Below, one piece after another: positions 62,059 to 62,644 of a stretch of DNA of 64,000 nt (its first letter is position 1; every line of letters starts with the position of its first letter). Source of the DNA: Octopus vulgaris (Eukaryota); assembly GCA_951406725.2 (NCBI GenBank), contig OX597831.1, positions 33,914,001 through 33,978,000 on the forward strand, written 5' to 3'. The notes under the pieces were generated by a model, which was not told where the DNA came from, did no database searches, and saw nothing but the letters and a program-made list of their open reading frames with translations. The position numbers and the translations under genes are program-made.

Positions 62059-62644
62059 TACGTGGTGTGATCAATAGTCTGACTACTTTCACATATATCA
62101 ACACCACCACCACTATCATCATCACACATATAAAATTTGAAGGAAAATCAACAAAATTCTCATATACTTGTGAGCACACATTTACATATTCATTTACAAA
62201 AAGACTTCATCCCATTTAACAGCTGTAACGTATGTAACAATGGCGTATAAATGAAGATCACAACATGATTTACAATGGACGGATAGGTGTCATCTAACAG
62301 CAATAACGAAGCTAAATCACGTAGAATGCCGCTTGGCACAGATTAACCTTTTAGGCCATCTTGGAAACGTTTGAACCACTCGTACACTCGTGTGCTGCTC
62401 ATACACTCCTATCCATGCTCCTTCTGCAACTTTTAGTAGGCCTCTGAGCAGGTATCTCCATGACAACTATCTCTGTCATAGTCGATGCTATGATCAGTTT
62501 ACTTCCAAGCACTTTCGTAAACAGCGGCAGTGAGCCAGAACGTTAAAACGTAGTGTGCATGCACAGCAGAGCTCAAGGTCAATCTGTGCCAAGAGGCTTT
62601 AGCTTCGTTACTATGGCCAGAGTCTGGGTATTTATAGATCAGAC
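62059..62644. mobile_element. Mariner-type non-autonomous element (MITE) in (TA)n, left TIR interrupted by an insertion
   Basis: Left end tacgtggtgtgatcaatagt...taacgaagctaaa..cttggcacagattaacctt is an imperfect inverted match to 62575-62644. It resembles the mariner-like terminus tacgaggtctgatctataagt at 63016. Confidence 0.65.

What the first reader, a model, noticed from the sequence alone, without database searches (positions are those of the whole stretch)
62086..62301. Five-piece templated patchwork insertion copied from 2-4 kb upstream
Seen: 62086-62123 = 59496-59533 (identical); 62126-62193 = 59778-59848 (3-bp deletion, 1 change); 62192-62226 = 58400-58434 (2 changes); 11-bp filler; 62238-62295 = reverse complement of 58550-58607 (1 change); 62291-62301 = 58421-58431. 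Junction microhomologies are 'at' and 'catct'. The patchwork interrupts the left TIR of a mariner-like MITE. Inference: serial template switching during break repair (polymerase theta/MMBIR type) sampling physically nearby DNA, possibly at a transposase-made break.
Basis: partly seen in the sequence, partly recalled or inferred. Interest (0 to 1): 0.7.

Follow-up and report, generated by a model that had tools for sequence, protein, structure and literature searches.

The report
Patchwork DNA-repair scar in dead transposon
A 216-base patch inside a long-dead jumping gene is stitched together from short copies of DNA lying 2-4 kb away and is shared by related species; it is most likely the scar of a repaired chromosome break, an unusually intricate example of a known process, with no sign of a function.

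Summary
Real, and not mis-assembly. All five pieces match at the stated coordinates. The patch occurs once in the 2.8-Gb genome. Contigs from three organism labels bridge its inner junctions, and one still carries the donor-state letters. It sits in the left inverted repeat of a copy of a roughly 900-bp mariner-derived MITE. That copy is 10-12% from its family consensus while patch and donors differ by 2%, so the break came long after transposition; a cut by this family's transposase is unlikely. The donors form two clusters, which suggests that each broken end copied one cluster, hopped several times, and met the other at a 2-bp overlap. Just downstream lie a fold-back copy of the MITE's right end and a probable 1.15-kb inversion of similar age, possibly the same event, beside long TA repeats. 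This is a proximal repair-mediated duplication (Pace 2009) at the complex end of its range. No other three-donor case was found in 1.66 Mb. The scan noted similar scars in other genomes before. Known kind, probably neutral.

The parts
62059..62644 (+). Host: decayed, internally deleted copy of a ~899-bp mariner-derived MITE (consensus positions 1-~30, 41-90 and 573-893 kept; ~480-bp deletion at 62349/62350)
   Evidence: HTH_48 (Mos1-type) in another copy of the family, E 3.6e-6
62059..62085 (+). Left TIR stub before the patch; matches consensus 1-18 well and 19-30 poorly
62080..62089 (+). Possible piece 0: 10-mer identical to 63176-63185, which starts exactly at the downstream inversion breakpoint (suggestive only)
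   Evidence: chance 0.04-0.2 depending on the word set
62086..62123 (+). Piece 1a, copy of 59496-59533 (38/38)
62118..62126 (+). Piece 1b (inferred), slip to 59545-59553; explains the 2-bp gap and gives 6-bp and 3-bp overlaps
   Evidence: chosen after the fact
62126..62193 (+). Piece 2, copy of 59778-59848; its 3-bp deletion and one change arose after the event
   Evidence: organism B contig has the donor state, record 17
62192..62226 (+). Piece 3, copy of 58400-58434 (33/35); 2-bp overlap with piece 2 is the proposed meeting point of the two ends
62227..62237 (.). 11-bp filler without a traceable donor (best local matches 8 bp, in microsatellites)
62238..62295 (-). Piece 4, inverted copy of 58550-58607 (57/58)
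62291..62301 (+). Piece 5, second visit to donor 3 (58421-58431); 5-bp overlap with piece 4
62304..62349 (+). Left TIR resumes at consensus position 41
58400..58607 (.). Donor cluster A (pieces 3, 4, 5). 58438-58446 equals the 9 TIR bases 29-37 lost at the break, a possible priming site
   Evidence: 345 of 20000 random sets
59496..59848 (+). Donor cluster B (pieces 1a, 1b, 2, used in genomic order)
61997..62060 (.). (TA)n run of about 32 units abutting the MITE's left end, about 20-26 bp from the patch
62645..63017 (.). 373-bp (TACA)n/(TA)n microsatellite at the MITE's right end; centre of a 560-bp near-palindrome
63018..63113 (-). Fold-back copy of the MITE's right end 62554-62644 (87/91), sharing its private changes
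63112..63176 (-). Inverted duplicate (64/65) of L047:330-394, just beyond the window; breakpoint duplicate of the inversion
63177..64000 (-). Probable 1.15-kb inverted segment (runs on to L047:329); splits a copy of a third MITE family
   Evidence: inferred from that family's order, not tested in other samples

Best explanation
The patch is a composite of copies of nearby DNA, most likely laid down once in the germline while a double-strand break in an already dead mariner MITE was repaired by strand invasion with repeated template switching. Shown: the pieces, their donors, strands and overlaps; loss of about 10-22 TIR bases; presence in other samples; an age far below that of the MITE. Inferred: the left broken end invaded 2.6 kb upstream and copied pieces 1a, 1b and 2 in genomic order with two forward skips. 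The right end invaded 3.6 kb upstream, possibly primed by a 9-bp match to its own TIR end, copied piece 5, crossed to the other strand at CATCT (piece 4), added filler, and returned to the same spot (piece 3). The two new strands annealed at AT. The break probably arose at the flanking (TA)n hairpin-prone repeats and not from this family's transposase. The fold-back copy and 1.15-kb inversion downstream are of similar age and may belong to the same episode. The product was then inherited and has decayed neutrally.
For: Pieces and overlaps. Single copy, local donors best for pieces 1, 2, 4. Junctions from 62192 rightwards bridged by contigs of X1 (organism A), X2 (B) and X20 (E), three studies; X2 has the donor's 3 extra bases and X2 and X20 the donor's A at 62172, so these changes are later and these two samples are not the assembly's source. 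Age: 4/199 against 37/303 (p = 1.8e-5); patch, fold-back (4/91) and breakpoint duplicate (1/65) do not differ (p = 0.42). No young copy among 17 full-length copies (closest pair 12.4%) or among 150 scored of 10832 protein candidates (best other copy 76%). Two-ended chimeras with microhomology and filler and donors within 5 kb are described in PMC2671141 (passages); germline inserts from up to five templates in PMC8421209 (passages); breaks at TA repeats in PMC13645644 (passages).
Against: The orthologous empty site was not seen; the pre-insertion state comes from the family consensus. The 9-bp priming match is not kept in the product, so it needs a further small deletion. Piece 3 has no base that ties it to the local copy of its family. 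TA adjacency is confounded, because mariners insert at TA (recalled) and TA runs are common here (721 runs of 15+ units in 1.66 Mb). The link to the inversion rests on one 10-mer (p 0.04-0.2) and on similar age. The TA-break paper concerns circular DNA in cancer cells and saw no extra breakage on the linear amplification.
Confidence: 0.72

Rival explanations
1. Polymerase theta end joining alone: iterative priming by a few bases on long resected ends built the patch.
For: Patchwork layout with untraceable filler is the described theta signature (PMC12426944, PMC8654963, passages). Re-use of the same donor (pieces 3 and 5) and two shared changes in piece 3, both on the patch side, would fit an error-prone polymerase.
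Against: Theta inserts are generally under 25 bp and map to the break flanks. Here four pieces are 35-68 bp, lie 2.2-3.7 kb away and come from both strands, which would need over 3.7 kb of resection plus a bottom-strand template.
Confidence: 0.25
2. Abortive gap repair after a mariner transposase excised the element: the ends re-copied the MITE from the sister chromatid and strayed onto neighbouring DNA.
For: Rearrangements of similar age sit near both ends of the element. Filler at excision sites is documented (PMC4423477, passages). 5 of 150 scored PF01359 matches lie in stop-free frames of 327 aa or more, so some mariner may have been active later.
Against: The family itself is 7-11% from consensus in 17 copies, with no young member found. 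The left terminus is intact and the break is 18-40 bp inside. None of the other 29 copies shows a local multi-donor insert within its 3.3-kb locus (too short to hold donors beyond about 1.5 kb).
Confidence: 0.12
3. Several independent small duplications piled up at one fragile spot over time.
For: Single local duplications are common: 87 pairs at 0.2-5 kb against 1.5-6.5 in equally wide distant bands (uncurated, includes TIR pairs). The region also holds a separate 70-bp inversion and a 480-bp deletion.
Against: The pieces abut with overlaps and no host DNA between them, have uniform low divergence, and pieces 2-5 occur together in organisms A, B and E. No other cluster of three or more donors in 1.66 Mb.
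Confidence: 0.08
4. Assembly chimera, or a dispersed repeat that already has this order.
For: No listed contig spans the whole stretch, and the two left junctions were skipped. Donor 3 is in a dispersed MITE and donor 4 overlaps an old repeat.
Against: Contigs of three studies bridge the junctions from piece 2 to the MITE, with sample-specific differences. The genome search returns only single-piece hits (9 matches).
Confidence: 0.02

Closest known systems
Proximal repair-mediated duplication (RD), chimeric class (Pace, Sen, Batzer, Feschotte 2009, PMC2671141; abstract, outline and passages read)
   Same: Germline insertion that interrupts an old transposon copy; donors within 5 kb; size in range (their mean 162 bp, maximum 619); microhomology, small deletion and filler; no poly(A), no target duplication; two-ended invasion with annealing at a short overlap.
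   Different: They report 20 chimeras among 1136, each of two donors, only 5 with both donors local. Here there are five to seven segments from two local clusters, with a strand switch, in an invertebrate, beside a fold-back and a probable inversion.
Complex MMBIR-type templated insertions (MMB-TI; PMC8421209, passages) and FoSTeS/MMBIR junction inserts (PMC5120786, passages)
   Same: [quoted passage not shown]
   Different: Their automated search looks within 100 bp; donors here are 2-4 kb away. The flanking rearrangement is 1 kb, not megabases, and is fixed across species labels.
Polymerase theta patchwork insertions (PMC12426944, PMC8654963; passages)
   Same: Patchwork of several templated stretches, filler, repeated use of one donor.
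   Different: Pieces are longer than the usual <25 bp and not from the immediate flanks; enzyme dependence cannot be tested here.
Filler DNA at DNA-transposon excision sites (PMC4423477, passages)
   Same: Foreign segments and deletions at a transposon.
   Different: The element is still in place, the insert is internal, and it is much younger than the family's activity; their fillers average 13 bp (1-123).

Membership tests
Proximal repair-mediated duplication | Insertion of 50 bp or more interrupting a transposon copy | tested here: met
   216 bp between TIR positions ~30 and 41
Proximal repair-mediated duplication | Donor within 5 kb on the same chromosome | tested here: met
   2.2-3.7 kb
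Proximal repair-mediated duplication | [quoted passage not shown] | tested here: inconclusive
   Met for pieces 1, 2, 4; piece 3 belongs to a dispersed MITE and one distant copy matches 34/35
Proximal repair-mediated duplication | Microhomology, deletion or filler at breakpoints; no poly(A) or target duplication | tested here: met
   Overlaps of 2 and 5 bp, 11-bp filler, 10-22 bp lost, no tail or duplication
Proximal repair-mediated duplication | Empty site in an orthologue or in the element's consensus | tested here: inconclusive
   Consensus gives the empty state; no orthologous empty allele was seen
MMBIR/FoSTeS templated insertion | Serial template switches at short homology, including a strand change | tested here: met
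   overlap excess p = 0.05, or 2e-4 with the post-hoc piece
MMBIR/FoSTeS templated insertion | Origin at a collapsed fork or break-induced replication | not testable with these tools
   A fixed allele keeps no record of the cell-cycle stage
Polymerase theta end joining | Short inserts (generally <25 bp) templated from the break flanks | tested here: not met
   Four pieces of 35-68 bp from 2.2-3.7 kb away (criterion)
Polymerase theta end joining | Dependence on POLQ | not testable with these tools
   Needs genetics
Transposase-induced abortive gap repair | Event as old as the family's activity | tested here: not met
   2% against 10-12% divergence; closest copy pair 12.4%
Transposase-induced abortive gap repair | Break at the element's terminus (recalled for mariner) | tested here: not met
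   Left terminus intact; break at TIR 18-40
Transposase-induced abortive gap repair | A compatible transposase available at that time | tested here: inconclusive
   5 of 150 scored PF01359 matches in frames of 327 aa or more; their TIRs and ages were not examined
Pack-type transposon carrying captured DNA | Cargo moved with the element to other loci | tested here: not met
   No second copy of the patch in G000
Mariner-derived MITE (host element) | Long TIRs, TA ends, many copies, mariner transposase remnant | tested here: met
   ~212-bp TIRs and TA ends, 2941 candidates, PF17906 HTH_48

The most novel reading that the evidence does not exclude
The patch, the fold-back copy and the 1.15-kb inversion are one germline event: a miniature chromoanasynthesis of about ten template switches confined to 6 kb, started at a TA-repeat hairpin and fixed in a group of related octopus species. 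Microsatellite-rich cephalopod genomes would then hold a datable fossil record of such events at TA repeats.
Probability: 0.35. Interest if true: 0.45.

Novelty: new member of a known kind. Interest (0 to 1): 0.27.

Why it matters
As a single locus it matters little: it lies in repeat-rich DNA with no host coding sequence found nearby. Its value is as a clean, readable record. It extends proximal repair-mediated duplication to an invertebrate germline (no such report in the library for 'octopus' + 'templated insertion', 'repair-mediated duplication', or 'cephalopod' + 'template switching' + 'microsatellite' + 'inversion') and shows more local donors than the two-donor chimeras of the original survey. 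It offers a testable two-ended route and a presence/absence marker shared by three organism labels. If such scars cluster at (TA)n runs genome-wide, that would tie TA fragility to germline structural change in a genome very rich in these repeats.

Tried and rejected
Outgroup test: three runs of organism C each gave one contig on piece 2 that stops at 62193 and runs on with 71 other letters (the donor locus, with the donor's 3 extra bases); 62228-62251 had no cover and no listed piece crossed 62349. One run of organism D covered only the MITE part. Lack of cover is no proof of absence, so this is not used for dating. The small-share rows other than the four laid are not used. Spliced or back-spliced RNA origin: rejected, since piece order is not colinear, one piece is inverted and there is no poly(A). 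Source of the 11-bp filler: none better than 8 bp within 56-68 kb. Piece 0: 3903 of 20000 random breakpoint sets score with all 70 junction words, 0.04 with the 53 rarer words; left as suggestive. A second two-piece cluster at 10313-10648 was dropped as a local patchwork because its second half belongs to a young high-copy repeat; a third, in the C5 block, was not followed. A first dot-plot drowned in microsatellites. No paper supplements were read; Table S1 of PMC2671141 might list more complex chimeras than the text describes.

Full report
Setting. The window is G000:C18:33914001-33978000 of a 2.8-Gb, microsatellite-rich animal genome; earlier notes of this scan call it an octopus. Of 78 open frames of 130 codons or more, 8 were scanned against Pfam: five are retrotransposon domains at 24-43 kb, and the two nearest the finding gave nothing. 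No host gene was found at the site, though short exons would be missed.

Observation. All coordinates hold: 38/38, 68-bp piece with one change and a 3-bp deletion, 33/35, 11-bp filler, inverted 57/58, and 11/11. A genome search with the patch gave 9 matches: itself, the four local donors, and four distant hits to piece 3 alone. Donor 2 is matched only by the patch, and distant hits near donor 1 are simple ATC-type repeats at 76-90%. Donor 4 overlaps an old repeat whose three other hits reach 78-84%. Donor 3 lies in a dispersed MITE (742 candidates) and equals the family majority there, so both differences in piece 3 are on the patch side. No repeat has the pieces in this order.

Reality in other samples. 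Of 24 runs listed, four top holders were laid. X1 (organism A) has a contig over 62128-62267 without differences and one over 62238-62378. X2 (B) and X20 (E) have contigs over 62128-62273 and from 62266 to beyond 62380. X19 (A) has listed pieces from 62292 on. So the junctions of piece 2/3, the filler, piece 4/5 and the return to the MITE are bridged in three studies. X2's patch has the donor's three extra bases and A at 62172; X20 has the A only. These two differences therefore arose after the insertion, and the patch predates the separation of these labels. The tool skipped 62060-62127, so the two left junctions rest on the assembly alone.

Host element. The right part of the stretch has 2941 candidates in the genome. 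Seventeen full-length copies give an 899-bp consensus with ~212-bp TIRs and TA ends, and lie 7.4-11.0% from it; one copy's frame matches the Mos1-type HTH. The window copy keeps positions 1 to about 30, 41-90 and 573-893 and is 10-12% from consensus. Patch and donors differ at 4 of 199 positions (p = 1.8e-5 against 37 of 303). The closest of 136 copy pairs is 12.4% apart, and the best other match among 150 scored protein candidates is 76%. The family was thus probably long inactive when the patch formed. Other mariner lineages remain a caveat: 5 of 150 scored PF01359 matches lie in stop-free frames of 327 aa or more.

Route. The donors form two clusters. Pieces 1a, 1b and 2 come from 59496-59848 in genomic order; 1b (59545-59553) accounts for the 2-bp gap, with overlaps of 6 and 3 bp. 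Pieces 3, 4 and 5 come from 58400-58607. Nine TIR bases lost at the break (consensus 29-37) recur at 58438-58446, 3 bp past donor 3 (345 of 20000 random sets do as well). I infer that each broken end invaded one cluster and that the new strands met at the 2-bp overlap, the two-ended scheme given for chimeric repair-mediated duplications (PMC2671141, passages).

Neighbouring rearrangements. 63018-63113 is an inverted copy of the MITE's right end (87/91) and shares its private changes; with the 373-bp microsatellite between them it forms a 560-bp near-palindrome, 93% paired in a DNA fold. It runs through a 2-bp overlap into 63112-63176, an inverted duplicate (64/65) of L047:330-394. Both duplicates carry the same private 16-bp deletion relative to a third MITE family, and each keeps one of that family's neighbouring parts. 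The simplest reading is a 1.15-kb inversion with a duplicated breakpoint (inferred, about 65%; untested in other samples). The three divergences (4/199, 4/91, 1/65) do not differ (p = 0.42). The 10-mer at 62080-62089 equals 63176-63185, at that breakpoint; chance is 0.04-0.2. One event is plausible but not shown.

Break source. Both ends of the MITE sit in long TA runs. TA repeats can extrude cruciforms, be cut and be repaired by microhomology joining (PMC13645644, passages, shown for circular DNA in cancer cells, not for the linear amplification). Only 2.4% of sampled positions lie within 30 bp of a (TA)15+ run, but mariners target TA (recalled), so the adjacency is confounded. I put a TA-related or unspecified spontaneous break well ahead of a transposase cut.

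Frequency. In 1.664 Mb (seven 200-kb blocks and 264 kb around the window; 14-32% masked) a scan for adjacent pieces of 25-300 bp, 93% identity or more, with best donors 0.2-10 kb away gave 156 clusters, 4 with more than one donor: this patch (4 pieces), the fold-back/inversion junction, 10313-10648 (second half a young repeat) and one in C5 not followed. No other case has three donors, so such scars are below about 2 per Mb. Single local duplicates are strongly enriched at 0.2-5 kb (87 pairs against 1.5-6.5 in distant bands; uncurated). None of the 29 other MITE loci shows a comparable insert within 3.3 kb.

Comparison. It meets the testable features of a proximal repair-mediated duplication: donors within 5 kb (824 of 1136 human cases), microhomology, deletion and filler. 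It exceeds their chimeras, which had two donors (20 cases, 5 fully local). Germline inserts from up to five templates (PMC8421209) and a 376-bp insert from three or more nearby loci (PMC5120786) are known in humans. Theta patchworks are known but usually shorter and closer. Searches found no cephalopod report, within a library that lacks most subscription papers.

Verdict. A real, inherited, probably neutral repair scar: a new and rather elaborate member of a known kind. Interest 0.27.

Noticed in passing
window 58468-58537: About 70 bp are inverted relative to other copies of the donor-3 MITE family, between donors 3 and 4; family hits split into 1-143 and 139-208 on opposite strands. Age and link to the patch unknown.
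   Followed up: partly
window 58539-58565: 11-bp direct repeat with a 5-bp spacer at the end of donor 4 and of the small inversion.
   Followed up: no
window 10313-10648: 195-bp copy of 9677-9882 (94%) joined to 140 bp of a young fold-back repeat whose many genomic copies match at 99%; a similar 12-bp word flanks both sides, and microsatellites lie on both sides.
   Followed up: partly
window 36274-42919: LINE-type reverse-transcriptase frames, one of 816 codons (RVT_1, zf-RVT).
   Followed up: partly
L047:341-453: 113-bp hairpin made of two arms of the third MITE family, 86% alike, so older than the inversion.
   Followed up: partly
L047:3770-4108: Three tandem 111-bp units followed by an inverted unit.
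   Followed up: no
L002-L030: The MITE family carries the start of the transposase gene on both strands inside its long TIRs, as if built from two left ends; a 14-bp deletion between 4-bp direct repeats recurs in several copies. L008 holds a 400-bp insertion that looks like a SINE (label recalled).
   Followed up: partly
window 63303-63464: 82% direct match to L047:40-209; two old copies of another repeat inside the inverted segment.
   Followed up: no
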